From the NCBI GenBank assembly GCA_041657045.1, contig JBBACM010000001.1, positions 13,259 through 77,258 on the forward strand: a stretch of DNA of 64,000 nucleotides, written 5' to 3'. The stretch is from Minisyncoccota bacterium (GTDB taxonomy: Bacteria > Patescibacteriota > Minisyncoccia > Minisyncoccales > Minisyncoccaceae). A model generated the notes under the pieces. That model saw only the letters and a list, made by a program, of their open reading frames with translations, was not told where the DNA came from and did no database searches. The translations under genes were made by a program, and so were the position numbers. Below are positions 583-42,297 of this stretch, piece by piece (the stretch's first letter is position 1; every line of letters starts with the position of its first letter).

Positions 583-3500
583 CTAGAGCGGCGATACCTC
601 TCTCCATTTCGGCAACAAGCTACCAGCAGGGCCAATTATTGCTTCATTCCCACAATAAGGAGAACCTTCAATCTCTAGTCCTACCGTTTTAGGAGCCGTT
701 GATGTGAAGTGAATAAATGGATTTGGAGAGTTCATATCGTCGCCTGGAGCAAAAGAATAATCATCGCCAAGAGTCCCAGGAATTTTCCATATGATAATGT
801 TTCCATTAGTAGAGCATGAAACTGGCGTTCCACCATCATAGCAAACGCTACATTTCCAATCCGTTGAACCAACTACGGCAGGGCCTGTTCCTTTCCAACA
901 AGTAGAATAACAAGTAGCTTCCGAATCACTAATATCTGTTCCGCTACAGAGCTGGATATCGCCATCAACGGAGGTAGCAACAGGGACAACCCTTACTGTC
1001 GAAAAGTGCCTTACGGGCGTTGTAAATGTTGCTGTTGCCCAATCAGATTCGGCACTATTGCTTCTAACTTTAACCCACCAATTATATGTCGTTCCATAAG
1101 CTATTTGATCGTCGCCTGGAGATATTTTTACCCATACCCTACCATACAGCTGCTCGTCAGTTGGTAGATGATCTGTTTCAACCCAACCTGTATTTATTTC
1201 TGCCTCACTAACAAGAGAAGAGGTTCCAATAGCAATCATGTAGTCTGTGATGTAGGCGCCAGGAGTATCGTCCTTGTACGTAAACCATAAATGTAAATTA
1301 CCATCATCTCCATCTAATAAATTTGTATGAGTATCCTCGTCGAAATAATGTTCACAATAGGCATAAGGATCCCATTGTCCGGCCGTATACATAGTTTCTG
1401 CACGAGGCCCTGAAGATGTAGATGATTCTCCTCCTAAAGAAGCAGTGGGCTCACTGGAAACATACTTACGGACAATTACATTATCTATCGTAAGATCTCC
1501 CCCTTGATAATGTGTGAAGCCTGTTTTAAACGTTGATGGAGCTGTATCAACATGATCATAGGTAGTCCAAGTAAGCCCACCATCCGAACTGAATTCGGTC
1601 TTCGTGCCAGCCCCATTCTGATTTATTATCTCTCTAGTATCGTATTGAGTATTGGGATAAATATATCCCGCAAACTGATCTACAACAGCACCGGCCTGAA
1701 AAATTTGAAAACGCCAATCCGTTTTAGCCGCTAGGCCAACCATATCGTAAATAAAGCTACTGCTACCAACTCCTGAGCTTGAATCTTTTACTCCAAGTAT
1801 CGTGTAGTCATAAAAGTTCGTTCCTCTTGCCAATGTTGTTTTATATTTACTTTGAACCATAACTCCACTGGTCGTTCTATCAAATGTAGTATTGGTGTGC
1901 ATTTCCGTACTATCCCACGCCTGATTACCATCGCTAATATTTAATGTTTCATTTTGAGTTATAAAATTATTAGCATCTGTTTTAGACCATTTCGTCGTGT
2001 TAATAATTGTTCCAGAAAAATCATCAAAGAAAAGGAATGTATCATCTCCTTTTGATGCAGGAGGCGCAGAACTATTTCCATAATACATATAAAAAGTAGT
2101 CGCGGGACTAGTGGCAATTGAAGGAATCTTAACCCAGACTTTGGCAGTATCAGGAGTAGCGACAGTATCTATTGACTCGATCCAATAAGGATAGATTGTC
2201 CCGTCTGACTTGGCAAATCTTAAATCGCTAAAATCAGCATTCATTTTCCCTGTAACATAGGGTACATCTATCTTCATGGCGTAATTTGTTAATGATGAAC
2301 CACTAGACACTGTTACCAACTTTTTATAACTCCAACCAGATAGAGAAGGTAGGCCTGAAGAAGCATAGGCCATGCAGCTGGAGGATAATCCCCCATAACT
2401 AGCACAGGTCCAATACCATGGGCCGGCACCAGTAACAGTTGGATTTGTAGAAATATCGGAACAAAGGGCGCTTCCCGAAGGGGCCGAAGCAACGAATGTT
2501 CCGTTTGCAGAACCGCAAATATTGATAGTTGATGCTTCTGCACCAAAACTACCTACAGTTGGTTCGGTTGCAGCATATTTACGCTGATATACCCAATCAA
2601 AATCTGCATTTGTTGTTCCTGAAGTATATGCAAGAACATTCAAAGAAATATGAGTTCCTGCAGGGTTAATAGCCCATGAATTCCAGGTTCCAGATTGACC
2701 AACCCGATAATAAAATGTTGAAGAATAGTCATGTCTCAACTCAAAAGTATACCATGTGCCCAAAGAAAATGTCTGTAAATTTGTCCCCCACGCAACATTT
2801 TCATTTAACGGAGCAATATAAAATGCATTGGAGTGTAATGTAAGTTTCGCACCAATATCATTACCAGTCGTTTTGATACCAACCCGAGCATCACAATCAT
2901 TTGATGTCGCAGTATTGCTTCTAAGCTTAGACCCAGTAATCACGGTCGCATTATTCGTATCTGTTTTTGCCGTAATGGTGTTCCAAGATAAAGGCCCAGA
3001 TATGGAGACAGACATTAAGCTGTTTGCAAATGTTCTAACGCCGGACGATGCAGTGCTGGTCCACTTTGTGGTGTCCAGAGATAATCCATTAAAATCATCG
3101 AAAAAAACAAAAGTGCTATTTCCATCAGATGCAGAAGGCGTAGAACTATTTCCATAATACATATAAATTGTATTTGCACCTGCCGAAAGAGATGTCTTAA
3201 CCCAGACTTTGGCAGTACTGCTTGAAGTATATGACTCAATCCAGTAAGGAAGAAGAGTAGATCCTGTAGAATCAGTGAACCTTATATCATCAAAATCAGG
3301 CTGCATGTCTGAGTCATAAGTAACAGTAATTGGCACTTGATAATCAGTTAATGCTCCGCCTGAACTATTAATCGGAATAGATTTTTTGTATCGTCCTATA
3401 AATGTAGACGTTGAACAGTTGGTCGGTATCGTCTCTCCGACACCGGTACATGTCCAAGTCCAGATACCGGCACCATTAGCAACAGGTCCGGTGACTATAT

Positions 3501-5520
3501 TGCCAGTAGCGCAAAGGCCTGTTGTGGGAGCTGAAGTCGGAAAGTATTGGCCGTTAGAAGAACCGCAAACTCCGGTAGGAACCTCTTCTGCAGAAAAGAT
3601 AGTCGTTGGAACGACCGCAGAATATTTGTGTACAATAATCCAATCCCAATAAGCTTCATAATTATAAAAATAATCATCATCATATCTTTCCCCTAAAGCA
3701 ATGGGCATTGACGTAATTGACCTGTTAATATTTGATACACTACCATAAGACGCCCCCGTAGCATAATTAGCGATAGATAGGTCTACGGCCGAACTGCTTT
3801 TCACGGCAATTTTTGTTAATAAGTCTGTTGCCGCTGGCGAACCCGATTCACCGCCAGGAAGCTCTATCCAATCATTATTAAAATACCAGTTAGACGCGAA
3901 AGGGATAGCTCCAAAACCAACATAATATGATGAATAAAATCCTCCGGACATAAAACCCATATCAGCCATAGTAACATAACGATGTTTTGTTTCTAGAACA
4001 AAGGGCGTTGTGGCGACGCTAAAAGTAGATATTGATTTTAATCTATCTTTAGTGTTTGACCCTTTTAATTCTCCACCATAAAGAACCCATTCTGGAGCAA
4101 CAGCTGTTCCACTAGACTGAATCCATTTAGAGAGACCGTTATTAAAATCGTCAAAAAAGATAAAAGTATTGGCTCCACTTGAACCAGGGCCAGTCCAACC
4201 ATTACCATAATACATATAAATTATAGTCGCGGCGGCATTAGAAATCGTCGGAACCTTAACCCAGACTTTGGCAACGTCTGGATTGGAGACAGTATCTATT
4301 GACTCGATCCAATAAGAGAGAAGGGTTGCTCCGGTAGAATCGGTGAATCTTAAATCATCAAAATCAGTTTGCATGTCTGAATCATAGGTAACATTAATGG
4401 GCACTTGATAATCAGTCAGTGCTGTCCCAGTATTAATTATTGTTATTGCCTTTCTGCGATCCCAAGCCTTGCTGGCTGTGGATAGTTGTTGGGCCCACAT
4501 TACATAAGTAGGCTCAGAGGGAGTAGGACCCGTAGACATAACAAATTTACGAACAGCAACCCAATCAACCGAGATAGCCTGTGCGTGTCCATAAAAAGAT
4601 GCGGGTAATTGAGAAATTGTTGTTGGTAAATTGGTAGTGATAGTAGAAACAACTGTATTGTCAACACTATAAATCGCACTTACAGTAGAGTTTCTACTAA
4701 TATCATAAATATGATATCCAGTGGTCGGAGTTAGTTGAACTTCTGTTTTATTCGCCGGATAAGGATTTCTTGAAAGTGCGCCAAAAGAACCGGCAACAGG
4801 ATAATTAACATAAAACATATCTGTATAATAATTGTCCGAAGTTCTAAATCCCCAACCAGCATAAGATGATGCTGAGGCCACGCTGACTCTTGAACGGAAA
4901 GAATATCCATTTCCAAATGTCGATATCGAACTTAACATTGATGTACTTGGAGTTCCGGTCGTAGGAATAGTTGCTATATAAGGAGAAATATTATTTAATG
5001 TTGCTGCTCCTGTCCATTTTGTTACATCAAAACTTGTCCCGATAAAATCATCAAAAAAATCAAAAGTATCTACTCCGCTTGAAAGCGTGCCTGTGGTAGA
5101 ATTTCCATAAAACATATACAGATAGGTTAAACCTGCAGTGGGTATGCTCGGAACCTTAACCCAAAAAGTGGCAACGTCTGGGTTGGGAGCAGTGTCTATA
5201 GATTCCAACCAATAAGGAAGTAAAGTAATCCCATCTATTGAAGTAAACCTTATATCATCAAAATCGGACTGCATTTCAGATACATAAGGAACTGTGATTT
5301 TAATCTGATAATCGGTTAAATTAACTCCGGTCGGATTAGTAATCTCTATTTGTCTCTTGTAAGTAAAGGTTGGCAGACGCTGCATCAGCCAGCTCTCTCC
5401 TGCTGCAGAAACATCAACGGTGGACTGTCTTTTAAAGATAAAAAAAGCTCCAAGAATTAAAATTAAAACTGATAGAGCTCCTATGATAAACTTTTTGTTC
5501 TTAGGTATTTTTGAGTGCAT
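583..5520 (-). CDS. Giant (1645 aa) secreted, N-terminally anchored surface protein with four DUF2341-like repeats, LamG/ConA-like modules and two Cys-rich modules
   Basis: N-terminal TM/signal anchor. Four repeats of ...LTDYQ(I/V)...DSDMQ.DFDD(I/L)RFT...YW(I/L)ES...AKVWVK(V/I)P...YMYYGN...F(F)FDDF. Two copies of a C-x5-C...W.WTC motif. Confidence 0.6.
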   Translation of the reverse strand: MHSKIPKNKKFIIGALSVLILILGAFFIFKRQSTVDVSAAGESWLMQRLPTFTYKRQIEITNPTGVNLTDYQIKITVPYVSEMQSDFDDIRFTSIDGITLLPYWLESIDTAPNPDVATFWVKVPSIPTAGLTYLYMFYGNSTTGTLSSGVDTFDFFDDFIGTSFDVTKWTGAATLNNISPYIATIPTTGTPSTSMLSSISTFGNGYSFRSRVSVASASSYAGWGFRTSDNYYTDMFYVNYPVAGSFGALSRNPYPANKTEVQLTPTTGYHIYDISRNSTVSAIYSVDNTVVSTITTNLPTTISQLPASFYGHAQAISVDWVAVRKFVMSTGPTPSEPTYVMWAQQLSTASKAWDRRKAITIINTGTALTDYQVPINVTYDSDMQTDFDDLRFTDSTGATLLSYWIESIDTVSNPDVAKVWVKVPTISNAAATIIYMYYGNGWTGPGSSGANTFIFFDDFNNGLSKWIQSSGTAVAPEWVLYGGELKGSNTKDRLKSISTFSVATTPFVLETKHRYVTMADMGFMSGGFYSSYYVGFGAIPFASNWYFNNDWIELPGGESGSPAATDLLTKIAVKSSSAVDLSIANYATGASYGSVSNINRSITSMPIALGERYDDDYFYNYEAYWDWIIVHKYSAVVPTTIFSAEEVPTGVCGSSNGQYFPTSAPTTGLCATGNIVTGPVANGAGIWTWTCTGVGETIPTNCSTSTFIGRYKKSIPINSSGGALTDYQVPITVTYDSDMQPDFDDIRFTDSTGSTLLPYWIESYTSSSTAKVWVKTSLSAGANTIYMYYGNSSTPSASDGNSTFVFFDDFNGLSLDTTKWTSTASSGVRTFANSLMSVSISGPLSWNTITAKTDTNNATVITGSKLRSNTATSNDCDARVGIKTTGNDIGAKLTLHSNAFYIAPLNENVAWGTNLQTFSLGTWYTFELRHDYSSTFYYRVGQSGTWNSWAINPAGTHISLNVLAYTSGTTNADFDWVYQRKYAATEPTVGSFGAEASTINICGSANGTFVASAPSGSALCSDISTNPTVTGAGPWYWTCASYGGLSSSCMAYASSGLPSLSGWSYKKLVTVSSGSSLTNYAMKIDVPYVTGKMNADFSDLRFAKSDGTIYPYWIESIDTVATPDTAKVWVKIPSIATSPATTFYMYYGNSSAPPASKGDDTFLFFDDFSGTIINTTKWSKTDANNFITQNETLNISDGNQAWDSTEMHTNTTFDRTTSGVMVQSKYKTTLARGTNFYDYTILGVKDSSSGVGSSSFIYDMVGLAAKTDWRFQIFQAGAVVDQFAGYIYPNTQYDTREIINQNGAGTKTEFSSDGGLTWTTYDHVDTAPSTFKTGFTHYQGGDLTIDNVIVRKYVSSEPTASLGGESSTSSGPRAETMYTAGQWDPYAYCEHYFDEDTHTNLLDGDDGNLHLWFTYKDDTPGAYITDYMIAIGTSSLVSEAEINTGWVETDHLPTDEQLYGRVWVKISPGDDQIAYGTTYNWWVKVRSNSAESDWATATFTTPVRHFSTVRVVPVATSVDGDIQLCSGTDISDSEATCYSTCWKGTGPAVVGSTDWKCSVCYDGGTPVSCSTNGNIIIWKIPGTLGDDYSFAPGDDMNSPNPFIHFTSTAPKTVGLEIEGSPYCGNEAIIGPAGSLLPKWREVSPL

Positions 5521-8905: not shown

Positions 8906-10399
8906 ATGAAAATGGACTTGAAAAAAATTCCTGAAAATGTCTTGTTTTGTATTGAAGCTTTGCAAAAAAATGGATTTGAGGCATATATTGTCGGCGGGTG
9001 CACCAGAGATTTTCTAAGAGGCGTATCCCCGGCTGACTGGGATGTTGCCACCAATGCCATTCCCGAACAAACTCAGAAAATCTTTAAAGATCTAAAAATC
9101 AAGACTTTTTACGAAAATGACTTCGGCACAGTCGGGGTAGCTTTCCCCAAAAAAAATGACGAATTTGAAGTTATCGAGATAACTACATATAGAAACGAAG
9201 CGACTTACACAGACAGTCGCCATCCAGATAAGGTTAGCTGGTCTAAAACCATTGAAGAAGACCTAAAAAGAAGGGATTTTACAGTCAATTCTATAGCAAT
9301 ATCCCTAAAAAATGGCTCCGAAATGGAGATTATCGATATGTTTAACGGAAAAAACGACCTCGAAAAGCATATTCTTAGGGCTGTAGGCATTCCGAGCGAT
9401 AGATTCCAAGAAGACGCCTTGAGAATGATGAGAGCGGTTAGACTAAAGACTACTTTAGGTGATGATTGGACAATTGAAGAAAAAACCAAGCAAGCAATCA
9501 AAGATAACGCTCAATTATTGAACAAGATATCCCAAGAAAGGATTAGAGATGAGCTAATTAAGATAATCGATAGTGAGAATGCGGCTGCTGGAATTGAATC
9601 ATTAAGAAATAAAGGATTATTAACATATATAATGCCGGAATTGGAGGAAGGATACGAAGTCGCCCAAAACAAGCATCATATCTATGATTGCTACAAGCAT
9701 AATCTCGAATGCCTCAATTTCGCAAGTCATAAAGCTTATAAATTCGAGGTTCGCATGGCTGCCCTACTACATGATATAGGAAAACCGAAGACTAAGCGGG
9801 GAGAAGGTAATGACTCTACCTTTTATAACCATGAGATTATCGGAGCTCAAATGGCCGAGAAAATACTCAATCGCTTAAGGTTTCCCAAAAAAGATGTAGA
9901 AAAGATCGTTAATTTGGTAAGATACCATCTATTTTACTACAATGTAGATGAAGTAGGAGAAGCTTCGGTCCGAAGATTGGTTAGAAATGTAGGAGCTGAA
10001 AATATGGAAGATTTGCTGGAGTTAAGAATGGCTGATAGAATCGGGTCCGGATGCCCAAAAGCAGAACCATATAAGCTAAGGCACTTCAAATATATGATTG
10101 AAAAGGTGTCAAAAGACCCTATTTCCGTTAAAATGTTAAAGATTAACGGAGAAGAAGTAATGAAAACACTGAATATCCAGCCGTCCCCAAAGGTAGGCAT
10201 GATATTAGATATATTATTTGAAGATGTGCTAAAAGAACCTAAAAATAACGATAAAGCGTACTTAAGCAAGAGGTTATCGGAACTAGGAAGCTTAAATGAA
10301 GCTGAATTAAAGAATTTAGCTGAAAAAGCTAAGGAAGAAAGGAATAAAGTTATTATTAAGGAAGATGAGATGACTAAAGAAAAATACTGGGTAACATAG
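8906..10399 (+). CDS. cca: CCA-adding tRNA nucleotidyltransferase (Pol-beta-like head domain plus HD domain)
   Basis: GGCTRD...DWD nucleotidyltransferase motif and HD motif (LLHDIGKP). Located immediately before CCA-less tRNAs. Confidence 0.8.
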   Translation: MKMDLKKIPENVLFCIEALQKNGFEAYIVGGCTRDFLRGVSPADWDVATNAIPEQTQKIFKDLKIKTFYENDFGTVGVAFPKKNDEFEVIEITTYRNEATYTDSRHPDKVSWSKTIEEDLKRRDFTVNSIAISLKNGSEMEIIDMFNGKNDLEKHILRAVGIPSDRFQEDALRMMRAVRLKTTLGDDWTIEEKTKQAIKDNAQLLNKISQERIRDELIKIIDSENAAAGIESLRNKGLLTYIMPELEEGYEVAQNKHHIYDCYKHNLECLNFASHKAYKFEVRMAALLHDIGKPKTKRGEGNDSTFYNHEIIGAQMAEKILNRLRFPKKDVEKIVNLVRYHLFYYNVDEVGEASVRRLVRNVGAENMEDLLELRMADRIGSGCPKAEPYKLRHFKYMIEKVSKDPISVKMLKINGEEVMKTLNIQPSPKVGMILDILFEDVLKEPKNNDKAYLSKRLSELGSLNEAELKNLAEKAKEERNKVIIKEDEMTKEKYWVT

Positions 10400-10415
10400 T
10401 GTTTCACGTGAAACA
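10400..10415. repeat. Palindrome TGTTTCACGTGAAACA, copy 1 (directly after the cca stop)
   Basis: Perfect 16-bp palindrome. Confidence 0.9.
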
Positions 10416-10425
10416 CATCTTCAGA

Positions 10426-10441
10426 TGTTTCACGTGAAACA
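10426..10441. repeat. Palindrome TGTTTCACGTGAAACA, copy 2, 6 nt upstream of tRNA-Ala
   Basis: Perfect 16-bp palindrome. Confidence 0.9.
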
Positions 10442-10447
10442 TTGCCC

Positions 10448-10518
10448 GGGCCCGTAGTCCAACGGTAGAATACTGCATTCGCATTGCAGAGATATGAGTT
10501 CAATTCTCATCGGGTCCA
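10448..10518 (+). tRNA. tRNA-Ala (anticodon CGC), no encoded CCA
   Basis: Hand-folded cloverleaf: acceptor GGGCCCG/CGGGTCC with G3:U70 (the Ala identity pair), anticodon loop TTCGCAT, T-arm ATGAG-TTCAATT-CTCAT, discriminator A. Confidence 0.75.
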
Positions 10519-10708
10519 CAGTTTATTAATTAATCATATGATTAAACATAAACAAATAGAAATTATTGATTCGGCTATCGTTGAAAGTCCTAAAAAGAGA
10601 TGTATTGGTTAAATCTTATAAATAGATTACGTCCAGAGGCCATATTGAGCTAAAAGAAAGCTACGACTAAGCAACTGAAGATAACATTAAGTTTAAAAAG
10701 TCCAAAAA

Positions 10709-10724
10709 TGTTTCACGTGAAACA
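10709..10724. repeat. Palindrome TGTTTCACGTGAAACA, copy 3, 5 nt upstream of tRNA-Val
   Basis: Perfect 16-bp palindrome. Confidence 0.9.
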
Positions 10725-10729
10725 TTTGA

Positions 10730-10800
10730 GGACCTGTAGTTTAATGGTAGAACGCCACCTTCACACGGTGGTGGTATAAGTTCGATTCTTATCAGGTCCA
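10730..10800 (+). tRNA. tRNA-Val (anticodon CAC), no encoded CCA
   Basis: Acceptor GGACCTG/CAGGTCC, D-arm GTTT-AATGGTA-GAAC, anticodon loop TTCACAC, T-arm ATAAG-TTCGATT-CTTAT. Confidence 0.8.
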
Positions 10801-10909
10801 CAGTTTGTCCAGAATCGTGTCCAGAATTGTCCCCAATTTGTCCAGAATGTCCACAGTTTGTCCAGAATCGTGTCCAGAATGTCCAGAAAGAATTAAATTT
10901 GTCCAGAAT
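10798..10909 (+). repeat. Degenerate tandem array of GTCCAGAAT-type units (about 7 copies). It includes an exact 30-nt duplication (10798-10827 = 10851-10880) that begins with the last 3 nt of tRNA-Val.
   Basis: Read directly. The 12-mer GGTCCACAGTTT also follows tRNA-Ala. Confidence 0.85.
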
Positions 10910-10926
10910 GAAATAAAATAACAAAA

Positions 10927-10942
10927 TGTTTCACGTGAAACA
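10927..10942. repeat. Palindrome TGTTTCACGTGAAACA, copy 4, 5 nt upstream of tRNA-Pro
   Basis: Perfect 16-bp palindrome. Confidence 0.9.
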
Positions 10943-10947
10943 TCTAT

Positions 10948-11018
10948 CGGGATGTCATATAATGGCATTATGCAGGCTTCGGGAGTCTGTAATCCGGGTT
11001 CAAATCCCGGCATCCCGA
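10948..11018 (+). tRNA. tRNA-Pro (anticodon CGG), no encoded CCA
   Basis: Acceptor CGGGATG/CATCCCG with C1:G72 (typical of bacterial tRNA-Pro), anticodon loop TTCGGGA with G37, T-arm CCGGG-TTCAAAT-CCCGG. Confidence 0.7.
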
Positions 11019-11039
11019 CTATAATTAGTCTTAAAATAT

Positions 11040-11639
11040 ATGGAACAATATATACTGCTAATAATCTTCATTGTCTTGGGTTATTTATTCGGCTCTATCC
11101 CTTTCGGCTATATAATATCAAAGTCAAAAAAAATCGATATCACAAAGCAGGGAAGTGGTAATATCGGAGCGACTAATGTTTCAAGGGTGCTTGGCTTTAA
11201 ATATGCTTTTTTGGTTGGGGCTTTAGATATATTAAAGGCCGTTCTTCCTATATATATAGCAAGTCGCTATATAACCAACGAATGGTATATGGCCTTAGTG
11301 GCTATTTCTCCGATAATTGGCCATATCTTTTCTGTTTGGCTTAATTTTAAAGGAGGAAAGGCCATATCAACAATATTTGCTTCGATTATTTGGATCATCG
11401 GGTGGAAATACGCATTAATATTATTATTAGTTTGGATCGTTGCATTAAGAACAATTAAGATAATGAGTTTAACTAATTTGATAATCATTTGGTTTATACC
11501 TCTATTGTTCTGGTTCCAAACTCATTCTTTTGCCTACTTGACAATTAGTTTATTTTATATTCTTATAGTATACTGGACTCACCGAGAAAATATTCAAAGA
11601 CTAAAAAAGGGAACAGAGAAAAAAATAATTAAAAGCTGA
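11040..11639 (+). CDS. plsY: Glycerol-3-phosphate acyltransferase PlsY (acyl-phosphate dependent)
   Basis: Canonical PlsY motifs GSGNIGATN, FKGGKA and H.EN..RL..G.E, in a multi-TM protein. Confidence 0.8.
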   Translation: MEQYILLIIFIVLGYLFGSIPFGYIISKSKKIDITKQGSGNIGATNVSRVLGFKYAFLVGALDILKAVLPIYIASRYITNEWYMALVAISPIIGHIFSVWLNFKGGKAISTIFASIIWIIGWKYALILLLVWIVALRTIKIMSLTNLIIIWFIPLLFWFQTHSFAYLTISLFYILIVYWTHRENIQRLKKGTEKKIIKS

Positions 11640-11700
11640 TTGATTATAATTAACTTTTAATATATAATTATCTTAATGAATAAATTATCCAATAAATTTT

Positions 11701-12264
11701 GTGGTTAACTACATATATATACTATCCTGCATATATTTCTTCTTTCCGGCCGGGGTTGCCAATGCTTTTCCGCCCCTAGCCAATACTTTCAATATTCTGA
11801 ACGGCTTAAACAAGCCTATTGATGGAGGAAAACAGCTAAATGGAATGCCGATATTGGGCAGCCACAAAACCTGGAGAGGATTATTCTCTGAAATCATTAT
11901 CTGCACTCTTTTAACCCAGCTATTTTTATTTATTCACAAGTACTACAATCTTTCTCTTTATCAAACCATCGGATTTGATTACCAATCTATCAATTCCTGG
12001 CTTTTCGGCATTTTAATGTCTATCGGCATTGTTTTTGGAGACATTTTTTTTGCCTTCATAAAGAGAAGGCTGAGATTGAGACCAGGAGTCGCTTTTGTTC
12101 CTTTTGACCAGACCAATTATGTCATCGGTGCATTTATATTTTTGCAACCACTGATTCACCTATCTATTGAATTTTGGATTACTCTATTTGTCTTGACATT
12201 TTTATTACATGTTTTATCTAATAGGATTGGGTACAACTTAGGGTTGCACAAAGCCAAGTGGTAA
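11701..12264 (+). CDS. Polytopic membrane protein, putatively of the CDP-alcohol/CDP-archaeol synthase (CdsA/CarS-like, DUF46) family
   Basis: About 5 TM helices, a basic KRRLR patch next to an Asp-containing helix, and a phospholipid-gene context. Family assignment is tentative. Confidence 0.35.
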   Translation: MVNYIYILSCIYFFFPAGVANAFPPLANTFNILNGLNKPIDGGKQLNGMPILGSHKTWRGLFSEIIICTLLTQLFLFIHKYYNLSLYQTIGFDYQSINSWLFGILMSIGIVFGDIFFAFIKRRLRLRPGVAFVPFDQTNYVIGAFIFLQPLIHLSIEFWITLFVLTFLLHVLSNRIGYNLGLHKAKW

Positions 12265-12302
12265 TATAAGATTAAAAAGGTTAAAAAATAACCATTATTT
12301 TT

Positions 12303-12953
12303 ATGCAAAACATATTAGATCTATTTTATCAAGAATTATTAGTCCGCGTACCCGACTTGCTCTGGGCGCTGATAACTATATTTTTCGGATGGATTATTGC
12401 CGGAAAAATAAAAAATATCACTATTAATTTTTTAAACAAATTGCGGTTAAACCAGATGCTGAAGTCTTTGGGTTGGGAAACATTTTTCGACAAGTTTGAT
12501 GCTAAAATGAATATTCCTAAGTTCTTCGGTTTGATTGTTGAAATATATTTCTTCCTTCTTTTCCTTATTATCTCGTTCGACATCTTAAAGCTAAATACTA
12601 TAAGCAAACTGATAGGGGACGTTGTCGGATACTATCCTAATATTTTCATTTCAATCCTTATCTTCATTTTTACCGTATTTTTAGCCGATTTCAGTAAAAA
12701 AATAGTTGTCGGCAGCATGGAAAAAGAAAAAATAGTCTACTCTAATTTCTTGGGAGAAATTATTTCTTCTGGTGCCTGGCTTTTGGCAATATTGGCCATT
12801 CTCTACCAATTACAAATAGTCCAAACATTAATTTTAACAATCTTTATTGGAGTGGTAGCTGTTATTGTTATTGCCCTGGGAATTTCTTTCGGCTTGGGAG
12901 GAAAAGACATGGCCAGTAAAATCTTAGAAGACATGGAAAATCGAATGAAATAA
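12303..12953 (+). CDS. Hypothetical polytopic membrane protein
   Basis: Several hydrophobic helices and no recognisable catalytic motif. Confidence 0.4.
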   Translation: MQNILDLFYQELLVRVPDLLWALITIFFGWIIAGKIKNITINFLNKLRLNQMLKSLGWETFFDKFDAKMNIPKFFGLIVEIYFFLLFLIISFDILKLNTISKLIGDVVGYYPNIFISILIFIFTVFLADFSKKIVVGSMEKEKIVYSNFLGEIISSGAWLLAILAILYQLQIVQTLILTIFIGVVAVIVIALGISFGLGGKDMASKILEDMENRMK

Positions 12954-12983
12954 ATAAGATACTACACGTAGATTGTTTTACTT

Positions 12984-14768
12984 ATGGAACAAATATCACA
13001 AAACGAACTTAAAAAAATGCTTCTTTTCTCTTATGAAAGGATAGAAAGAGATAAGGAGCAGGTAAATAAAATAAATGTTTTCCCCGTACCGGACCAGGAC
13101 ACTGGGAATAATCTGGCCGCAACACTGAAGGGAATAAAAGAAGCAATTGAAAATAAAGAATTTGATTCAATCGAAGAACTAAGCAACAGCGCCTTAGACG
13201 GAGCACTGACTGCCGCTCAGGGCAACACTGGAATAATCTATACCGGATTTTTAGCCGGATTTTTTCCTGTAATTGCCAAAGAATCAACTGTTGATGCCAA
13301 AAAATTAGGAGAGGCTCTTACAAAAGGGTACGAAAGAGCCAGAGATTCTATCCAAAATCCCAAAGAGGGAACAATGCTTGATGTTATTGAGGCTTTTGCT
13401 TTAGGGGTCAATGAAAAAGCCAAAGAAGAAAAAGATATTGTTAAAATATTCTATTACGCTTTAGAAAAGGCCAACGCCGCACTATTAGATACCCCGAATA
13501 AAATGGAACTGCTTAAAAAGGCGGGCGTGGTTGATGCTGGAGGATTAGGATTTTTAATGATTATCGAAACATATTTGGATACTTTAAAAGAACAGTCAGA
13601 ACCATTTGTCATCAAGTCATTTGAAAAAGAAGAAATTAACAGGCCAAAAAGATTTGTCCAAATATTATCTAATAGATATGAGGTGGTTTCCTTACTTGAA
13701 GACGGAGACTATTCGGAAAAACAGATTAAAGAAAAACTTCATCATTTGGGCAACTGCCTTGATGTTATCCAAGTAGGAGAAAGGACGAAAATACACATTC
13801 ACACCGACGATCCATACGAAGTAAGGGACATTATTAAAAAGATGGGGAAAATTGAAGACTTGAGAATAGAAGATATGGCCAAAGAAGTAACGGGAGAAAA
13901 ATCGGTTGAAAATGTTTCTGTAGGAATTGTTGTCGATGAAAGAGCTGGCCTCTCGGCTAAAATAGTGGCTCACTACGGAATAGAGGTAATACCCTTAAAA
14001 ATATCCTGGCCGGAAGGGGAAAGTATTATCGGAGAAAATATATGCCAAAGAATTAAAGAGGCTAAAAAACAGGGAATAGTTTCTCAGCCCAAAATAGAAC
14101 CGATTTCGCCTGAATTCTTTATGGAATCATTTAAGAAACAGTTGGAAAATTTTGAAGATATTTTATGCATAATTTCTTCTTCTAGGCTCTCTAAAAACTA
14201 CGAAGCCGCAACCAAGGGAAGGGGAATGCTCAATTATGTCGAACGAGAACACGTCTTTGTAATTGATTCAAGAAACATCAGTGCCGGACAATCTCTTTTA
14301 ACTCTTGAAGCTTTAGAAATGATAACCGAACAAAGAAAAATAAGGGAAGTGCTAAAAAAACTGGATACCGCCATTATTAAAACCAACCTCTATTGCATCG
14401 TAGAAAAATCTGACTGGTGGAATAAAGAAAAAGCAAAACCTTTCTGGTTTAATAAAAAACAAGAAAAACGATATGCTTTAGGAGAAATGAAACACGGGAA
14501 AATTATACCCACCGAAACAATTAAAACAACCGATTTCGCCTCTGCATTGTTTAATAAAATAGAAAAAGAATCGAGGAAGGATATAAAGGAGGGGAAAAAA
14601 TTGAGAGCGGTCATCGTCCACGGAGATAACTTAGAACAAGCCGAAGAATTAAAACAAAAGCTTAAAACAATTAAAAAAACAGACATTTCTTTTGTAAATA
14701 TTACCGATCCGATTACAAGCATTAACGCTTGTCCACAAAGCATACTTGTCGGCTGGATAATCAAGTAG
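12984..14768 (+). CDS. fakA: Fatty acid kinase FakA (DAK2/DhaL-domain protein of the YloV family)
   Basis: N-terminal DhaL/DAK2 signature (PVPDQDTGNNLAATL) and a DegV-like C-terminal half, followed by two DegV (FakB) genes and PlsY paralogs. Confidence 0.7.
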   Translation: MEQISQNELKKMLLFSYERIERDKEQVNKINVFPVPDQDTGNNLAATLKGIKEAIENKEFDSIEELSNSALDGALTAAQGNTGIIYTGFLAGFFPVIAKESTVDAKKLGEALTKGYERARDSIQNPKEGTMLDVIEAFALGVNEKAKEEKDIVKIFYYALEKANAALLDTPNKMELLKKAGVVDAGGLGFLMIIETYLDTLKEQSEPFVIKSFEKEEINRPKRFVQILSNRYEVVSLLEDGDYSEKQIKEKLHHLGNCLDVIQVGERTKIHIHTDDPYEVRDIIKKMGKIEDLRIEDMAKEVTGEKSVENVSVGIVVDERAGLSAKIVAHYGIEVIPLKISWPEGESIIGENICQRIKEAKKQGIVSQPKIEPISPEFFMESFKKQLENFEDILCIISSSRLSKNYEAATKGRGMLNYVEREHVFVIDSRNISAGQSLLTLEALEMITEQRKIREVLKKLDTAIIKTNLYCIVEKSDWWNKEKAKPFWFNKKQEKRYALGEMKHGKIIPTETIKTTDFASALFNKIEKESRKDIKEGKKLRAVIVHGDNLEQAEELKQKLKTIKKTDISFVNITDPITSINACPQSILVGWIIK

Positions 14769-14860
14769 TATAATATTAAATATAATAATTAATCCTTATT
14801 CACAAAGCATACTTGTCGGCTGGATAATCAAGTAGTATAATATTAAATATAATAATTAAT
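14734..14860 (+). repeat. Tandem direct duplication (2 x ~60 nt, period 67) covering the last 12 codons and stop of fakA plus the downstream AT-rich spacer
   Basis: CACAAAGCATACTTGTCGGCTGGATAATCAAGTAGTATAATATTAAATATAATAATTAAT occurs twice. Confidence 0.9.
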
Positions 14861-14880
14861 AATAAAAATAAATAAAAGAT

Positions 14881-15828
14881 ATGTCTTCTATTCTCAAAAA
14901 AGCTTTTACGCTAATTGAGTTGCTAGTCGTAATCGCCATCATCGGTATTCTCTCTGGTCTAATCATAGTCGGAATGAATGGAATGACTAGACAGGCAAGT
15001 ATTGCTAAATCCCAGGTATTCAACAACTCACTAAGAAACTCATTGATGAATGATATGGCAGCAGATATTCCTTTAGACGGAAGCGCCGAAGACATCTGGA
15101 ATCACAATACCGGAACTGGCGTAGGAGGTACTTTTTTAACTCAAGCAAATGGTAATTGTGTTCAAAATACCTGCTATAGTTTCAACGGAGGAGTTGGCGG
15201 TGTCGCAACTACTGATTATGTTTGGCTAGCTGACAATGACAAATACGCCCTCACAAATCAAATGACCGCCATGATATGGGTAAAAGGAAACGCGCCAGCA
15301 ACTACAGACAGAGTCGCTTTCGGTCACTGGGATGCCTCCGGAGCAACAACAGTAAGAGGGGAATGGAAAATTATGTCGGCGATAACTACTGGTGCCCTTA
15401 GGGTAATCGTATCTAATGACGGAGCGGAATCAACTGCTGCTAATTATAAAAACTATGTTACTTCAAGCGCAACCCCCTTTGATGGAAATTGGCACTTAGT
15501 CGGATTCACTTTTAATGCTGGGACCCTAACTTTATATGTCGACGGAGTATCAGCTTTAGTCACCATGACAAACGATGGAGCAAGCGCCACAAGCATATAC
15601 GCTTCAACTTCCCACCTTACTTTAGGCGCCAGCTTAAACGCTAACGCCTTAGTTACTACAACTACTTTTGCCGGACTTTTAGACAGCGCCAGATTCTATG
15701 ACGCACCGATTCCGACATCTCAGATTAAAGAACTGTACTACGCTGGCTTAACTAACCTGTTCGCAAAAGGACAAATAACTGCACAAGAATATTCTGAAAG
15801 AATAAGCTCTGTAGGAATAAACAATTAA
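14881..15828 (+). CDS. Type IV pilin-like protein (prepilin-type N-terminal cleavage/methylation helix) with a large LamG/ConA-like globular domain
   Basis: N-terminus KKA|FTLIELLVVIAIIGIL with Glu at +5, followed by a Gly/Thr/Asn-rich beta domain. Confidence 0.65.
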   Translation: MSSILKKAFTLIELLVVIAIIGILSGLIIVGMNGMTRQASIAKSQVFNNSLRNSLMNDMAADIPLDGSAEDIWNHNTGTGVGGTFLTQANGNCVQNTCYSFNGGVGGVATTDYVWLADNDKYALTNQMTAMIWVKGNAPATTDRVAFGHWDASGATTVRGEWKIMSAITTGALRVIVSNDGAESTAANYKNYVTSSATPFDGNWHLVGFTFNAGTLTLYVDGVSALVTMTNDGASATSIYASTSHLTLGASLNANALVTTTTFAGLLDSARFYDAPIPTSQIKELYYAGLTNLFAKGQITAQEYSERISSVGINN

Positions 15829-15833
15829 TATAA

Positions 15834-16715
15834 ATGGAGTTAGTAAAAGAGAAAATAGGCCTCATCGTCGGCGAAACTTCTGATTTACCGCAAGAAATTG
15901 TCGACATAAATAAAATAACTGTTGTCAGGTTCAAATTAGATTTTCAAGAATTGGCAAATCTACCCGGCAATGTCTACGAAAAAGTAAGGGAAGGGGAAAA
16001 AAGAGGAATAAAAAGCCTAATAAAAACATCCCAACCATCAATTAACGATTTTCTCTCAGTATTCAAGGAAAAACTCAAAGAATTTGAAGAAATTTTATGC
16101 ATAACTTTTTCTTCAAAAATATCGGGAGCATATAATTCTGCGATACAGGCCAAAAAATTTCTAGAAGCTGAATTGCAAAATAAAGTACACGTATTTGATT
16201 CGATGAATGCCAGTGGCTCGGAAGGACTCGTTGCCTTAAAAGCAATTTCTTTGATTAAACAAAAACTTAATCTTAACGAAATTATCGAAAAGCTAAAAAA
16301 AGAATTGCCGAATATAAAACTCATAGGAATGTACAAGAGTCCGAAGTGGATTGAAGCAAGCGGAAGATTTCCAAGGTTTGTTCCCGCGATGATGAATCAG
16401 GCGGAAAGAATGGATATCAAGCCTGTCTTTGGATTAAGAGACGGAAAGTTAACAATTGTCGGGGTTAAAAAAAATATTAAAGACATTGCCACCGCTCTTT
16501 TCGAAGAATTTGAAAAAACAACGAAAAAAATCAGAGAGTCTGGAAAAAATATCGACATTGCCATAACCCACGCCGACAACATAGAACAAGCGAACAAATT
16601 GAAAGATTTAATCCTATCCCTTGAAAATACAAAAATTGCTTTTGTTAGCTTAATCTGTTTTCCAGTCGGGGGGCATATAGGTCCCGGCTCAATGGTTCTT
16701 TCTTGGAATCAATAA
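15834..16715 (+). CDS. DegV-family fatty-acid-binding protein (FakB-like)
   Basis: DegV family architecture; paralog of the next gene. Confidence 0.7.
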   Translation: MELVKEKIGLIVGETSDLPQEIVDINKITVVRFKLDFQELANLPGNVYEKVREGEKRGIKSLIKTSQPSINDFLSVFKEKLKEFEEILCITFSSKISGAYNSAIQAKKFLEAELQNKVHVFDSMNASGSEGLVALKAISLIKQKLNLNEIIEKLKKELPNIKLIGMYKSPKWIEASGRFPRFVPAMMNQAERMDIKPVFGLRDGKLTIVGVKKNIKDIATALFEEFEKTTKKIRESGKNIDIAITHADNIEQANKLKDLILSLENTKIAFVSLICFPVGGHIGPGSMVLSWNQ

Positions 16716-17605
16716 TAATTAAAAATATGAAAAACGCAACAATAATAGTAGGAGAAAGCGCATCTATGACCAAAGACGTTATTGATAAATTTGGAATGAT
16801 TGTCGCTCCTTTTGTTGTCGACTGGCCGGAAGGAATAAATCTTCCCGGTAACAATATTTTTGAAAAAATGAGGGAAGCCGAAAGGCTGGGAATAAAAACA
16901 ACCCCTAAAACTTCTCAACCATCAATAGGCTTATTCAAAAAAATCTTTGAAGAAGCCCTGGAAAACAGCGAAAATATTATTTGCATAACTATAAGTTCAG
17001 CTATCTCTGGAACATACAATTCCGCAGTGCAGGCTAAGAAAATGGTCGAAGAAGAAAAGCAAAAAAGAATCTTTGTTTTTGATTCTTTTAATGCCGACGC
17101 AAGTGAAAGCTTACTTGCAATTAAAGCTGCTGAAATGGCCGAAGAGGGAAAAAGGGGGAATGAAATAATGGTAACCCTGGAAACGCTTTCTCCCAAGACC
17201 TTTCTTTTCGGAATGCTTGAAAGCCCTAAATGGCTTGAAGCAGGAGGAAGAATAAACCATGCTTTATCAATAATTCTTTCTCAGATGCAAAAAATAGGAA
17301 TGAGGCCAATCCTTACCATAAAAGACGGACTGGTTAAGCCGGCTAATCTAAAAATGCAAGCTCAAGATACGGCTAATGCCATATTTAAACAATTAGAAAA
17401 CACCATCAAAAATCCTTTATCAGAAGGAAAAAAATGCCGGGTTGCTATTTCCCATGCCGACAATCTTGAGCAAGCTCAAAGGTTAAGAAGCATGATTGAA
17501 GAAAAATATCCGCAAGTTAAAATAGAATTTATCGGCATAACCAGTATTGTTATCGGCGCCCATGTCGGACCGGGAACATTACTCTGTTGCTCATTAGAAG
17601 GATAA
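16703..17605 (+). CDS. DegV-family fatty-acid-binding protein (FakB-like), second paralog
   Basis: Clear similarity to the preceding DegV gene (KTSQPSI..., CITISSAISGTYNSA..., ISHADNLEQA...). Confidence 0.7.
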   Translation: MESIIIKNMKNATIIVGESASMTKDVIDKFGMIVAPFVVDWPEGINLPGNNIFEKMREAERLGIKTTPKTSQPSIGLFKKIFEEALENSENIICITISSAISGTYNSAVQAKKMVEEEKQKRIFVFDSFNADASESLLAIKAAEMAEEGKRGNEIMVTLETLSPKTFLFGMLESPKWLEAGGRINHALSIILSQMQKIGMRPILTIKDGLVKPANLKMQAQDTANAIFKQLENTIKNPLSEGKKCRVAISHADNLEQAQRLRSMIEEKYPQVKIEFIGITSIVIGAHVGPGTLLCCSLEG

Positions 17606-17615
17606 TTGAAATAAA

Positions 17616-18287
17616 ATGAACATTAACTATCTTTTAATCGCTGCAGCTTCTTATCTAATAGGCTCAATCCCTTTTGCCCTTTTATACATAAAACTTCTAC
17701 TGAATAAAGACATTAGAAGTTTCGGCTCAAAAAATACTGGAGCACTCAATGCCTTAAGAATTGCCTCGCATGAAAAAGGAAGGGCGTGGGGAGTAATTTC
17801 ATTTTTAATAGTTTTTTTCTTTGATGCTTTTAAAGGTGCAATAGCTGTTATCCTGGCAACTAATTTAATGCCGGAGAACACAATACTCTCCATAACTATC
17901 GCAACATTCTTTGCTATCTTGGGACACAATTATTCAATAATTCTTAACTTTAAAGGAGGCAGGGGAGCGGCTACCTTGGGCGGGATATTATTATATCTCA
18001 ATTGGCAGGTATTCCTCGGCTCGGTTATTACCATCCTTTGTTTTATGATTCTCGCCGAAGCGTTAGCGGGAAGAAGAATTTCCAAAAAATTCTTTAAAAA
18101 AGCTGTTTCCGACCAAATAATAGGAAGATTAATCGGAGAAGCATATGCCGTGTGGTGGATATATCTTTTTGACCAGACACTATTTTATCCTGCTCTTTTC
18201 GGAACAATGTTGGTAATTTTTTCCCACAAAGACAGATTAACTGATCAAATTAAAGAGATAAAAAATAAAGCATACTTAAATGGATGA
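17616..18287 (+). CDS. Divergent PlsY-family membrane acyltransferase paralog
   Basis: Motifs GSKNTGALN and FKGGRGAAT; the third PlsY motif is degenerate. Confidence 0.55.
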   Translation: MNINYLLIAAASYLIGSIPFALLYIKLLLNKDIRSFGSKNTGALNALRIASHEKGRAWGVISFLIVFFFDAFKGAIAVILATNLMPENTILSITIATFFAILGHNYSIILNFKGGRGAATLGGILLYLNWQVFLGSVITILCFMILAEALAGRRISKKFFKKAVSDQIIGRLIGEAYAVWWIYLFDQTLFYPALFGTMLVIFSHKDRLTDQIKEIKNKAYLNG

Positions 18288-18933
18288 AGCTATCCTTCCT
18301 ATCTTTCTATTAATCGACGCCTATCTTTTAGGCTCCATTCCTTCCGGGTATTTGATAACCAAATACACAACCAATAAAAACCTGCTGGAAATAGGATGGA
18401 AAAAGAATTCCGGCTCAAATGTTTTTAAAAATGTCGGATTATGGCAGGGAGTATTCACTTTCCTCCTCGATGTAGCAAAAGGATTTCTTGCTGTCTATCT
18501 GGCCAGATATTTCGGTTTCTCCGAATTATTCCAGGTTTTCTGCGGTGTTTTAGCAGTAACCGGGCATAATTGGTCTATCTTCCTCGGATTAAAGGGAGGA
18601 AGAGGTTTAGCCGCCCTGGCAGGAGCACTATTAGTAATCTCTCCCTTAGTTTTAGTTATTTCCTTGATTCCTTTCGTCGTTTTTACTATAATTTGGACAG
18701 GTTCGGTGGGAACCCTTTTATCATTTTTAGCTGCTATTATTTTTTCCTTTTCTTTTAAAGGCTACGAAATGGCCGGATTACTAATGTTAATCTCCTTTAT
18801 CCCCGTGATAATCAAGAGATTGAGCCCGATTAAAGAACTGATAAATAACCCGAAACAAAAGGAGCTGATTGAAAACCGCCTTATTTTTGACCAAGATACT
18901 GTCCCACCAATCAGGCTTAAACTAAAAAAATAA
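18280..18933 (+). CDS. Divergent PlsY-family membrane protein paralog (third copy)
   Basis: LGSIPSGYL..., NSGSNVFKN, LKGGRGLAAL. More diverged than the other two. Confidence 0.45.
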   Translation: MDEAILPIFLLIDAYLLGSIPSGYLITKYTTNKNLLEIGWKKNSGSNVFKNVGLWQGVFTFLLDVAKGFLAVYLARYFGFSELFQVFCGVLAVTGHNWSIFLGLKGGRGLAALAGALLVISPLVLVISLIPFVVFTIIWTGSVGTLLSFLAAIIFSFSFKGYEMAGLLMLISFIPVIIKRLSPIKELINNPKQKELIENRLIFDQDTVPPIRLKLKK

Positions 18934-18939
18934 AGACAA

Positions 18940-19012: not shown

Positions 19013-19076
19013 CAAAACAGCTTGATTTTTTATAAAAAACAGGATATACTCCAGACACATAACAAAGTCAATTAAC

Positions 19077-19469: not shown

Positions 19470-19475
19470 AAATTG

Positions 19476-19842: not shown

Positions 19843-19844
19843 TT

Positions 19845-42067: not shown

Positions 42068-42297
42068 TGTGGAAAACATGAGGGAATAGAAGGTAAGGGG
42101 TGCTGACAAAATCGAGCACAAAAAAGTTATCAGACTAACCACGCAGAAATAGTCCCCAAGATGTCCCGAGTTATCCACAAAACAATTATTTCAAAAATCA
42201 TTTAAAACAAAAGAAAAACAATCATTAATAAATATTATCCACAAAAATACAATAATTAATAGTAATAATAAAAAATAAATCTTATTTTTAAAAACAT
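42068..42297. other. Putative oriC part 2: DnaA boxes TGTGGAAAA (42068-42076, reverse orientation), TTATCCACA (42170-42178) and TTATCCACA (42234-42242) in the AT-rich dnaA-dnaN spacer
   Basis: Read directly from the sequence. Confidence 0.55.

What the first reader, a model, noticed from the sequence alone, without database searches (positions are those of the whole stretch)
10400..10942. 16-bp perfect palindrome TGTTTCACGTGAAACA placed 5-6 nt upstream of each of three consecutive tRNA genes (4 copies)
Copies lie at 10400-10415 and 10426-10441 (tandem, before tRNA-Ala), 10709-10724 (before tRNA-Val) and 10927-10942 (before tRNA-Pro). The fixed spacing to the mature 5' end suggests an operator for a dimeric regulator controlling tRNA transcription, a processing/anchoring signal, or a mobile palindromic unit. 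tRNA-Arg and tRNA-Lys at 18.9-19.5 kb lack it.
Basis: seen in the sequence. Interest (0 to 1): 0.7.

Follow-up and report, generated by a model that had tools for sequence, protein, structure and literature searches.

The report
Chromosome-partition (parS) sites beside tRNA genes
The four palindromes are perfect copies of parS, the well-known bacterial "centromere" sequence bound by the partition protein ParB; their position just ahead of three tRNA genes is a habit of one small clade, not a tRNA control signal.

Summary
Four exact copies of TGTTTCACGTGAAACA lie 6, 5 and 5 nt before tRNA-Ala(CGC), tRNA-Val(CAC) and tRNA-Pro(CGG). No other copy with up to 3 mismatches exists in the 64 kb window.

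The 16-mer is the perfect-palindrome form of chromosomal parS (consensus TGTTNCACGTGAAACA), the ParB/Spo0J binding site. The same string occurs in many phyla. ParB genes lie in 44 of 120 sampled genome blocks that carry it.

The cluster lies about 31 kb from the predicted origin, the dnaA-dnaN spacer, as expected for parS. The host is a Patescibacterium (Paceibacteria/Minisyncoccales-like).

Relatives with 77-90% identical CCA-adding enzyme (cca) keep the same layout. More distant relatives keep the same tRNAs without an adjacent parS. One has four copies of a symmetric variant elsewhere in the same spacer. One relative lost tRNA-Val but kept its parS. A dedicated tRNA operator is therefore not supported.

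A side effect of ParB on tRNA transcription remains possible. Unrelated lineages also place parS 3-8 nt before a tRNA, and a -10-like hexamer precedes some sites.

ParB itself was not found in the roughly 95 kb I could examine. A conserved array of ten TGTCCAGAA-type repeats in the same spacer is unexplained.

Verdict: a known kind of element, of low to moderate interest.

The parts
10400..10415 (.). parS-1. Perfect consensus parS that starts directly after the stop codon of the CCA-adding enzyme gene (cca). It is the distal copy of a tandem pair.
   Evidence: Conserved in L244, L141, L208 and L175.
10426..10441 (.). parS-2. Lies 10 nt after parS-1 and 6 nt before tRNA-Ala.
10448..10519 (+). 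tRNA-Ala(CGC), 72 nt, no encoded CCA.
10709..10724 (.). parS-3. Lies 5 nt before tRNA-Val.
   Evidence: Retained in L175 although tRNA-Val is lost there.
10730..10801 (+). tRNA-Val(CAC), 72 nt, no encoded CCA.
10795..10908 (+). Array of ten same-strand 9-mers (seven TGTCCAGAA, plus GGTCCACAG, TGTCCCCAA and TGTCCACAG). Mean spacing is about 10.6 bp. The first unit overlaps the 3' end of tRNA-Val. Function is unknown; the units resemble DnaA boxes.
   Evidence: Nearly invariant in four relatives. L246 carries TGTCCAC(A/T)/TGTGGACA boxes at this place. L250 carries the reverse complement TTCTGGACA.
10914..10919 (+). TAAAAT, a -10-like hexamer 7 nt before parS-4. This is an inferred promoter element, not a shown one.
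   Evidence: Read from the sequence. The same hexamer lies 8 nt before the parS in L244 and L175 and overlaps its first base in L141 and L208.
10927..10942 (.). parS-4. Lies 5 nt before tRNA-Pro.
10948..11019 (+). tRNA-Pro(CGG), 72 nt, no encoded CCA.
8906..10399 (+). cca, the CCA-adding enzyme gene. Left border of the non-coding stretch (the hub).
   Evidence: Pfam PolyA_pol, PolyA_pol_RNAbd and HD.
11040..11639 (+). plsY. Right border of the hub.
   Evidence: Pfam G3P_acyltransf.
42068..42297 (.). Predicted oriC in the dnaA-dnaN spacer: AT-rich, with TTATCCACA boxes at 42171 and 42235. It sets the roughly 31 kb distance to the parS cluster.
   Evidence: The GC3-skew switch is at 42 kb.

Best explanation
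The four palindromes are chromosomal parS sites, the centromere-like sequences on which dimers of the partition protein ParB (Spo0J) nucleate. From established knowledge of the ParABS system, ParB then spreads as CTP-dependent clamps, is moved by ParA and loads SMC, so that newly replicated origin regions separate.

In this Patescibacterium the parS sites form one cluster about 31 kb from the origin. They sit in the only sizeable non-coding stretch nearby, the cca-plsY spacer, which also holds three tRNA genes and a repeat array.

In one clade each tRNA-proximal parS sits 4-6 nt before the mature 5' end of a tRNA. I read this as inherited close packing of parS into tRNA leaders, a place that tolerates a hairpin-forming palindrome, and not as tRNA-specific control.

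Shown: sequence identity to the consensus, clustering, origin proximity, conservation in relatives, and the general link of this string with parB genes. Inferred: binding by a ParB encoded elsewhere in this genome, and the reason for the spacing.
For: 1. The 16-mer equals the perfect-palindrome form of the parS consensus TGTTNCACGTGAAACA. All 20 listed of the 27 papers holding the exact string appear, from their titles, to concern ParB/parS, its paralogue Noc, or origin and chromosome organisation. The review PMC7022226 lists this consensus for Bacillus, Corynebacterium, Burkholderia and others, and the exact string for Hyphomonas.

The hits include Streptomyces, Alphaproteobacteria, Clostridia, Saccharibacteria and Nomurabacteria, often in clusters.

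3. A ParB profile found ParB ORFs in 44 of 120 genome blocks and 37 of 120 metagenome loci that carry the motif. Six of these ORFs were confirmed as ParB_N plus HTH_ParB by Pfam.

4. The cluster is origin-proximal. The gene order yidC-rnpA-rpmH | dnaA-dnaN lies at 39.3-43.4 kb. Canonical DnaA boxes flank dnaA. GC3 skew, with gene strand factored out, switches at 42 kb and not at the hub.

5. It is the only cluster in the window and its flanks.

6. Selection is visible. In five orthologous hubs the parS sites, the tRNAs and the array are invariant, while the spacers differ in sequence and length, for example 26 to 312 nt between tRNA-Ala and the next parS.

7. A more distant relative carries four copies of TGTTCCACGTGGAACA at the same locus. 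The change is symmetric in both half-sites, as expected for a site read by a dimer.
Against: No ParB, ParA or SMC gene was found. I examined the 64 kb window, 10 kb beyond its start, and about 10 kb beyond its right end on a sister contig (L251). The orthologous loci also lack them. The presence of the cognate protein in this genome is therefore assumed, not shown.

The symmetric variant in L246 would equally preserve an RNA hairpin.

The narrow spacing of 3-8 nt before a tRNA in several apparently unrelated lineages (L027, L146, L211, L225, L243) suggests a constraint that 'close packing' only partly explains.
Confidence: 0.9

Rival explanations
1. Dual use. The sites are parS, but their position between a -10-like hexamer and the tRNA 5' end makes ParB a roadblock or repressor of these three tRNA genes. 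Alternatively, tRNA transcription clears or pushes ParB and SMC. Either way, partition and expression of three C34 tRNAs would be coupled.
For: - TAAAAT lies 7 nt before parS-4. The same hexamer lies 8 nt before the parS in L244 and L175 and overlaps its first base in L141 and L208.
- In a Saccharibacterium, TATAAT lies 10 nt before AGTTTCACGTGAAACA, which is 3 nt before tRNA-Gly.
- Every parS found upstream and within 14 nt of a tRNA lies 3-8 nt from it. The metagenome pattern allowed 0-14 nt.
- ParB is reported to repress promoters next to parS3 and parS4 in Pseudomonas aeruginosa (title of PMC5521831). It is also reported to influence competence development in Streptococcus pneumoniae (PMC4488948).
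Against: - Orthologous tRNAs in L246/L247 and L248 work without an adjacent parS.
- L175 keeps the parS without the tRNA.
- No consistent -10 or -35 element precedes the Ala and Val copies. In L244 only 26 nt separate tRNA-Ala from the next parS, so co-transcription from upstream is likely.
- In L211 the parS sits between two tRNAs only about 23-25 nt apart, which leaves no room for a promoter.
- None of 179 exact sites in the unbiased genome sample lay within 50 nt of a tRNA. One 1-mismatch site in that sample, in L027, does lie 3 nt before a tRNA.
Confidence: 0.15
2. A dedicated operator for a tRNA-specific dimeric transcription factor unrelated to ParB.
For: Within this window the motif occurs only before tRNA genes, at near-fixed spacing.
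Against: - The string is the universal parS consensus and co-occurs with parB genes across phyla.
- It is absent from the orthologous tRNAs in more distant relatives.
- It is present without a tRNA in L175 and L250.
- tRNA-Arg and tRNA-Lys lack it.
Confidence: 0.02
3. An RNA-level signal. Once transcribed, the palindrome forms a leader hairpin that guides or times RNase P or another processing step.
For: - The 22-nt segment folds at -6.8 kcal/mol (z = -3.8). In the predicted precursors the hairpin ends 2-3 nt before the acceptor stem.
- The L246 variant keeps the pairing.
- rnpA is present in the window.
Against: - Any palindrome folds, so the fold alone says little.
- The sequence is conserved to the base, not just in pairing. 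One-sided mismatches occur without compensation in CGTTTCACGTGAAACA (L141) and AGTTTCACGTGAAACA (L146).
- The distal tandem copies and the copies away from any tRNA (L246, L250, L175) have no tRNA to process.
- From general knowledge, the bacterial RNase P protein prefers a single-stranded leader of 4 or more nt, so a hairpin this close is more likely tolerated than required.
Confidence: 0.04
4. A small mobile or recombination-derived palindromic repeat (REP- or MITE-like), or a terminator of the upstream gene.
For: It is a short perfect palindrome in intergenic DNA, and one copy starts right after the cca stop codon.
Against: - There are only four copies in about 84 kb.
- The consensus scan found no terminator-like site (G+C-rich stem followed by a T run) in 10200-11200.
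- The sequence is identical across phyla, which mobile repeats are not.
Confidence: 0.01

Closest known systems
Chromosomal parS of the ParABS system (Bacillus subtilis Spo0J sites; consensus tGTTNCACGTGAAACa; comparative survey by Livny, Yamaichi and Waldor 2007, cited in PMC7022226)
   Same: The 16-bp palindrome is identical. There are several copies in one cluster, close to the origin and rare elsewhere. The site is conserved in relatives.
   Different: The host is an uncultivated Patescibacterium. The cluster is not next to parAB. All four sites fall within 543 bp, in the leaders of three tRNA genes. From my own recollection, not checked here, B. subtilis sites lie mostly inside protein-coding genes and are spread over the origin-proximal part of the chromosome. 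The review table records 8 of 10 B. subtilis sites in the ori domain.
Pseudomonas aeruginosa parS3/parS4 and Streptococcus pneumoniae parS near comCDE (ParB affecting neighbouring promoters; PMC5521831, PMC4488948)
   Same: parS lies next to promoters, so ParB occupancy can alter expression of adjacent genes.
   Different: In those species the affected genes encode proteins and the effect was measured. Here the neighbours are tRNA genes and no expression data exist.
Caulobacter crescentus parS region with DnaA boxes (Mera et al. 2014, as described in PMC6399470)
   Same: A parS cluster sits a short distance from the origin, accompanied by DnaA-box-like motifs.
   Different: The repeats here (TGTCCAGAA) differ from the organism's own origin boxes (TTATCCACA, TTGTCCACA), including in the conserved CACA part. 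Binding by DnaA is untested.
Noc binding site NBS (ATTTCCCGGGAAAT), the site of a ParB paralogue
   Same: A 14-16 bp palindrome read by a ParB-family dimer.
   Different: The sequence is different. From general knowledge, NBS sites are spread over the chromosome and avoid the terminus. Not applicable here.

Membership tests
Chromosomal parS (ParABS centromere) | 16-bp inverted repeat matching tGTTNCACGTGAAACa | tested here: met
   Four copies match 16 of 16. The consensus comes from PMC7022226.
Chromosomal parS (ParABS centromere) | Located in the origin-proximal part of the chromosome | tested here: met
   About 31 kb from the dnaA-dnaN spacer, which carries DnaA boxes and the GC3-skew switch.
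Chromosomal parS (ParABS centromere) | Few copies, strongly over-represented against chance and absent from the bulk of the sequence | tested here: met
   Four copies in one 543-bp stretch. No other copy with up to 3 mismatches in 64 kb, nor in the flanking loci L122 and L251. The whole genome was not available.
Chromosomal parS (ParABS centromere) | Conserved in related genomes while flanking non-coding DNA diverges | tested here: met
   Alignment A1 of five hubs. There is a symmetric variant at the same locus in L246 and perfect copies in L250.
Chromosomal parS (ParABS centromere) | A cognate ParB (ParB_N plus HTH_ParB) encoded in the same genome | not testable with these tools
   A ParB profile gave no hit among the ORFs of the window, L122, L251 or the orthologous loci. 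About 120 kb of the 198 kb source contig, and the rest of the genome, could not be read.
Chromosomal parS (ParABS centromere) | Specific ParB binding and spreading at the sites | not testable with these tools
   Needs ChIP-seq or DAP-seq, or a gel-shift assay with CTP.
Operator of a tRNA-specific regulator | The motif accompanies the regulated tRNA genes in related genomes and is not a generic site | tested here: not met
   Orthologous tRNAs in L246/L247 and L248 lack it. L175 has the motif without the tRNA. The motif is universal in non-tRNA contexts.
DnaA-box cluster (for the TGTCCAGAA array only) | 9-mers matching TTATCCACA or TTGTCCACA with at most 1-2 mismatches | tested here: inconclusive
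   Only the GTCCACAG units fit, or ATCCACAG in L141 and L208. The seven TGTCCAGAA units differ within the CACA part. L246 has clear TGTCCACA/TGTGGACA boxes at the same place.
Sigma-70-type promoter overlapping the palindrome | -35 and -10 hexamers at 16-18 bp spacing that place the start at or just before the tRNA | tested here: not met
   The consensus scan found no more sites than in shuffles, and none usable. Only a -10-like TAAAAT upstream of parS-4 is conserved, and that was read by eye.

The most novel reading that the evidence does not exclude
In Patescibacteria, and sporadically elsewhere, parS sites are built into tRNA leaders at a fixed 3-8 nt from the mature 5' end, just downstream of the promoter's -10 element. 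ParB loading and tRNA transcription would then be mechanically coupled. Together with the conserved 10.6-bp-periodic TGTCCAGAA array, possibly bound by DnaA, the cca-plsY spacer would be a composite hub that links replication, segregation and translation capacity in a minimal genome.
Probability: 0.12. Interest if true: 0.6.

Novelty: new member of a known kind. Interest (0 to 1): 0.25.

Why it matters
It marks the chromosome's partition site in an uncultivated, ultra-small bacterium for which I found nothing on chromosome segregation in the papers searched. It also gives a compact, testable locus: four parS sites, three tRNA genes and a repeat array in about 640 bp.

For annotation it is a caution. 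A striking palindrome before tRNA genes is not necessarily a tRNA signal.

The recurrent 3-8 nt placement before tRNA genes in several lineages is a small open question about how ParB complexes and transcription coexist.

Tried and rejected
- **Palindrome as promoter.** The half-site GAAACA(T) is a poor -10 element. The 4-6 nt to the tRNA is shorter than the usual distance from a -10 hexamer to the start site, about 7 nt from general knowledge. The consensus scan gave nothing above shuffles.
- **Origin at the hub.** Raw cumulative GC skew has its minimum near 10 kb. That minimum is a gene-strand effect. With strand as a covariate the switch is at 42 kb.
- **Duplication of a parS-tRNA module.** tRNA-Ala and tRNA-Val are 71% identical, against 50-67% for the other tRNA pairs, so there is no clear signal.
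- **General parS-tRNA link.** None of 179 exact sites in the genome sample lay within 50 nt of a tRNA.
- **Known RNA family in the hub.** Rfam found only the tRNAs.
- **ParB or ParA in the window and flanks.** None found.
- **Literature on parS before tRNA genes, or on ParB in Patescibacteria.** Nothing relevant.
- **The lone extra TGTCCAGAA at 31085.** It appears to lie inside a small minus-strand gene (a 111-aa gene is called at the matching place in L123) and is most likely chance.
- **Failed or uninformative look-ups.** The look-up for 50282-51586 failed. The look-up for 28579-31047 returned only a 4 kb contig.

Full report
**Observation**

The sequence shows exact TGTTTCACGTGAAACA at 10400, 10426, 10709 and 10927. 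ARAGORN and Rfam place tRNA-Ala(CGC) at 10448-10519, tRNA-Val(CAC) at 10730-10801 and tRNA-Pro(CGG) at 10948-11019. The proximal palindromes therefore end 6, 5 and 5 nt before the mature 5' ends. No other copy with up to 3 mismatches exists in the window, against a shuffle mean of 0.32. tRNA-Arg and tRNA-Lys near 19 kb have none.

**Identity**

The 16-mer is the perfect-palindrome form of chromosomal parS.
- Twenty-seven papers in the library contain the exact string. All 20 that were listed appear, from their titles, to concern ParB/parS, its paralogue Noc, or origin and chromosome organisation.
- The review PMC7022226 gives TGTTNCACGTGAAACA as the conserved chromosomal centromere in Bacillus, Corynebacterium, Burkholderia and others, and the exact string for Hyphomonas.
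These include Streptomyces, Alphaproteobacteria, Clostridia, Bacillales, Saccharibacteria and Nomurabacteria, often with several copies per 8 kb block.
- A ParB profile built from ORFs in those blocks found ParB in 44 of 120 genome blocks and 37 of 120 metagenome loci carrying the motif. Pfam confirmed ParB_N plus HTH_ParB in all six ORFs I checked.

**Setting**

The host is a Patescibacterium. The closest named homologues of the neighbouring CCA-adding enzyme are from Minisyncoccales and Paceibacterota metagenome-assembled genomes. The window comes from a 198 kb JGI metagenome contig.

The palindromes lie in the spacer between cca (8906-10399) and plsY (11040-11639).

The origin is about 31 kb away.
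- The gene order yidC-rnpA-rpmH | dnaA-dnaN occupies 39.3-43.4 kb.
- Canonical DnaA boxes flank dnaA, at 40598 and 40609 upstream and at 42171 and 42235 downstream.
- A regression of third-codon-position GC skew that includes gene strand places the replication switch at 42 kb. The residual sum of squares is 717 there, 1882 with no break and about 1600 for a break at the hub.

The raw skew minimum near 10 kb is therefore a gene-orientation effect. An origin-proximal cluster that is unique within about 84 kb is what parS sites look like.

**Relatives**

A metagenome scan for the motif followed by a tRNA-like 5' part, and look-ups of cca homologues, recovered orthologous cca-plsY spacers.
- Relatives with 77% or more cca identity (L244/L245), and L141, L208 and L175, share the layout. 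It runs: tandem parS, tRNA-Ala, parS, tRNA-Val, repeat array, one or two parS, tRNA-Pro. The proximal gaps are 4-6 nt.
- In the five-way alignment the parS sites, the tRNAs and the array are invariant. The spacers differ freely; for example 26 to 312 nt separate tRNA-Ala from the next parS.
- L175 has lost tRNA-Val but kept its parS.
- At 66% cca identity (L246/L247) the same three tRNAs are present with no adjacent parS. Four copies of TGTTCCACGTGGAACA, changed symmetrically in both half-sites, lie in a 1.2 kb AT-rich stretch further on.
- L248 (64%) has no parS at the locus.
- L250 (60%) has three perfect copies after cca with no tRNA beside them.

The parS cluster at this locus is therefore older than its attachment to tRNA genes, and the tRNAs function without it.

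**Why beside tRNA genes?**

In the unbiased genome sample none of 179 exact sites lay within 50 nt of a tRNA. The association is not general.

Where parS does lie upstream and within 14 nt of a tRNA, it is always 3-8 nt from the 5' end.
- The three tRNAs of this clade.
- tRNA-Gly of a Saccharibacterium (L027, 3 nt). This site came from the genome scan that did not select for tRNAs.
- tRNA-Ala in L146 (8 nt), tRNA-Phe in a 70% GC contig L211 (4 nt), tRNA-Leu in L225 (5 nt) and tRNA-Gln in L243 (6 nt). The metagenome pattern allowed 0-14 nt.

My reading, which is inference, is that tRNA leaders and spacers tolerate hairpin-forming palindromes. A few unpaired nucleotides are needed before the RNase P site; rnpA is present. 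The closest permitted packing therefore recurs.

The predicted RNA hairpin is -6.8 kcal/mol and ends 2-3 nt before the acceptor stem.

The palindrome itself is a poor promoter, and the consensus scan found nothing above shuffles. However, a -10-like TAAAAT lies 7 nt before parS-4. It recurs in all four relatives. A TATAAT lies 10 nt before the Saccharibacterial site. This would put parS in the initially transcribed region.

A side effect of ParB on these tRNAs thus cannot be excluded. ParB is reported to repress promoters next to parS in Pseudomonas aeruginosa (title of PMC5521831). I give this dual-use reading about 15%.

**What is missing**

I found no ParB, ParA or SMC gene in the window, in 10 kb beyond its start, in about 10 kb beyond its right end on a sister contig, or in the orthologous loci. 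About 120 kb of the source contig and the rest of the genome were out of reach. No paper in the library addresses ParB in this group. Perfect conservation of several 16-bp sites argues strongly that a ParB exists, but this step is inferred.

**The repeat array**

Ten same-strand 9-mers lie at 10795-10908, with a mean spacing of 10.6 bp. Seven are TGTCCAGAA; the others are GGTCCACAG, TGTCCCCAA and TGTCCACAG. The first unit overlaps the 3' end of tRNA-Val.

The array is as conserved as the tRNAs in four relatives. In L246 the same place holds many TGTCCAC(A/T) and TGTGGACA boxes in both orientations. L250 holds the reverse complement TTCTGGACA.

The units resemble DnaA boxes but differ within the CACA part. 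Caulobacter offers a precedent for DnaA boxes in a parS region (PMC6399470). I leave the array unexplained. A DnaA-binding array or some other helical-repeat binder is the best guess.

**Verdict**

The finding is real, but the element is a textbook one: consensus parS sites in a lineage where they had not been pointed out. I rate it a new member of a known kind, with interest 0.25. The residual curiosity is the recurrent tRNA-leader placement and the neighbouring repeat array.

Noticed in passing
window 10795-10908 (+): Ten direct 9-mers (seven TGTCCAGAA, plus GGTCCACAG, TGTCCCCAA and TGTCCACAG) at about 10.6-bp spacing. The array starts inside the 3' end of tRNA-Val. It is nearly invariant in four relatives and is replaced by TGTCCACA/TGTGGACA boxes in L246. 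The units resemble DnaA boxes; the function is unknown.
   Followed up: partly
window 40598-40617 and 42068-42297: The predicted oriC sits in the classic yidC-rnpA-rpmH | dnaA-dnaN setting, with TTGTCCACA and TTATCCACA boxes. The third-codon-position GC skew switches sign at 42 kb.
   Followed up: yes
window 8906-23567: A block of about 15 plus-strand genes and all five tRNA genes is transcribed towards the predicted origin, that is, head-on to replication. This is unusual for tRNA genes and may reflect an old inversion.
   Followed up: no
window 8906-10399 with 10448-11019, 18940-19013, 19475-19548: All five tRNA genes lack an encoded CCA end. The CCA-adding enzyme gene sits directly upstream of the three-tRNA cluster and may be co-transcribed with it.
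   Followed up: no
window 10448-11019; L175 3264-3330: The three hub tRNAs all have C at the wobble position (CGC, CAC, CGG), so they read G-ending codons. Relative L175 has lost tRNA-Val(CAC) while keeping its parS.
   Followed up: partly
L246/L247 6880-7191 and 7386-7909: A more distant relative has a GIY-YIG ORF inserted in the hub. It also has four copies of the symmetric parS variant TGTTCCACGTGGAACA in a 1.2 kb AT-rich non-coding stretch rich in DnaA-type boxes, which could be an origin-like region.
   Followed up: partly
L027 6043-6078: In a Saccharibacteria contig, TATAAT is followed 10 nt later by AGTTTCACGTGAAACA, which lies 3 nt before tRNA-Gly(GCC). This is an independent case of parS in a tRNA leader.
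   Followed up: partly
window 583-5520 (-), 19077-19469 (+), 28579-31047 (-): A 1645-aa DUF2341 protein, and two genes with type IV secretion pilin-like domains. One of the two is an 822-aa protein with a weak T4SS_pilin hit.
   Followed up: no
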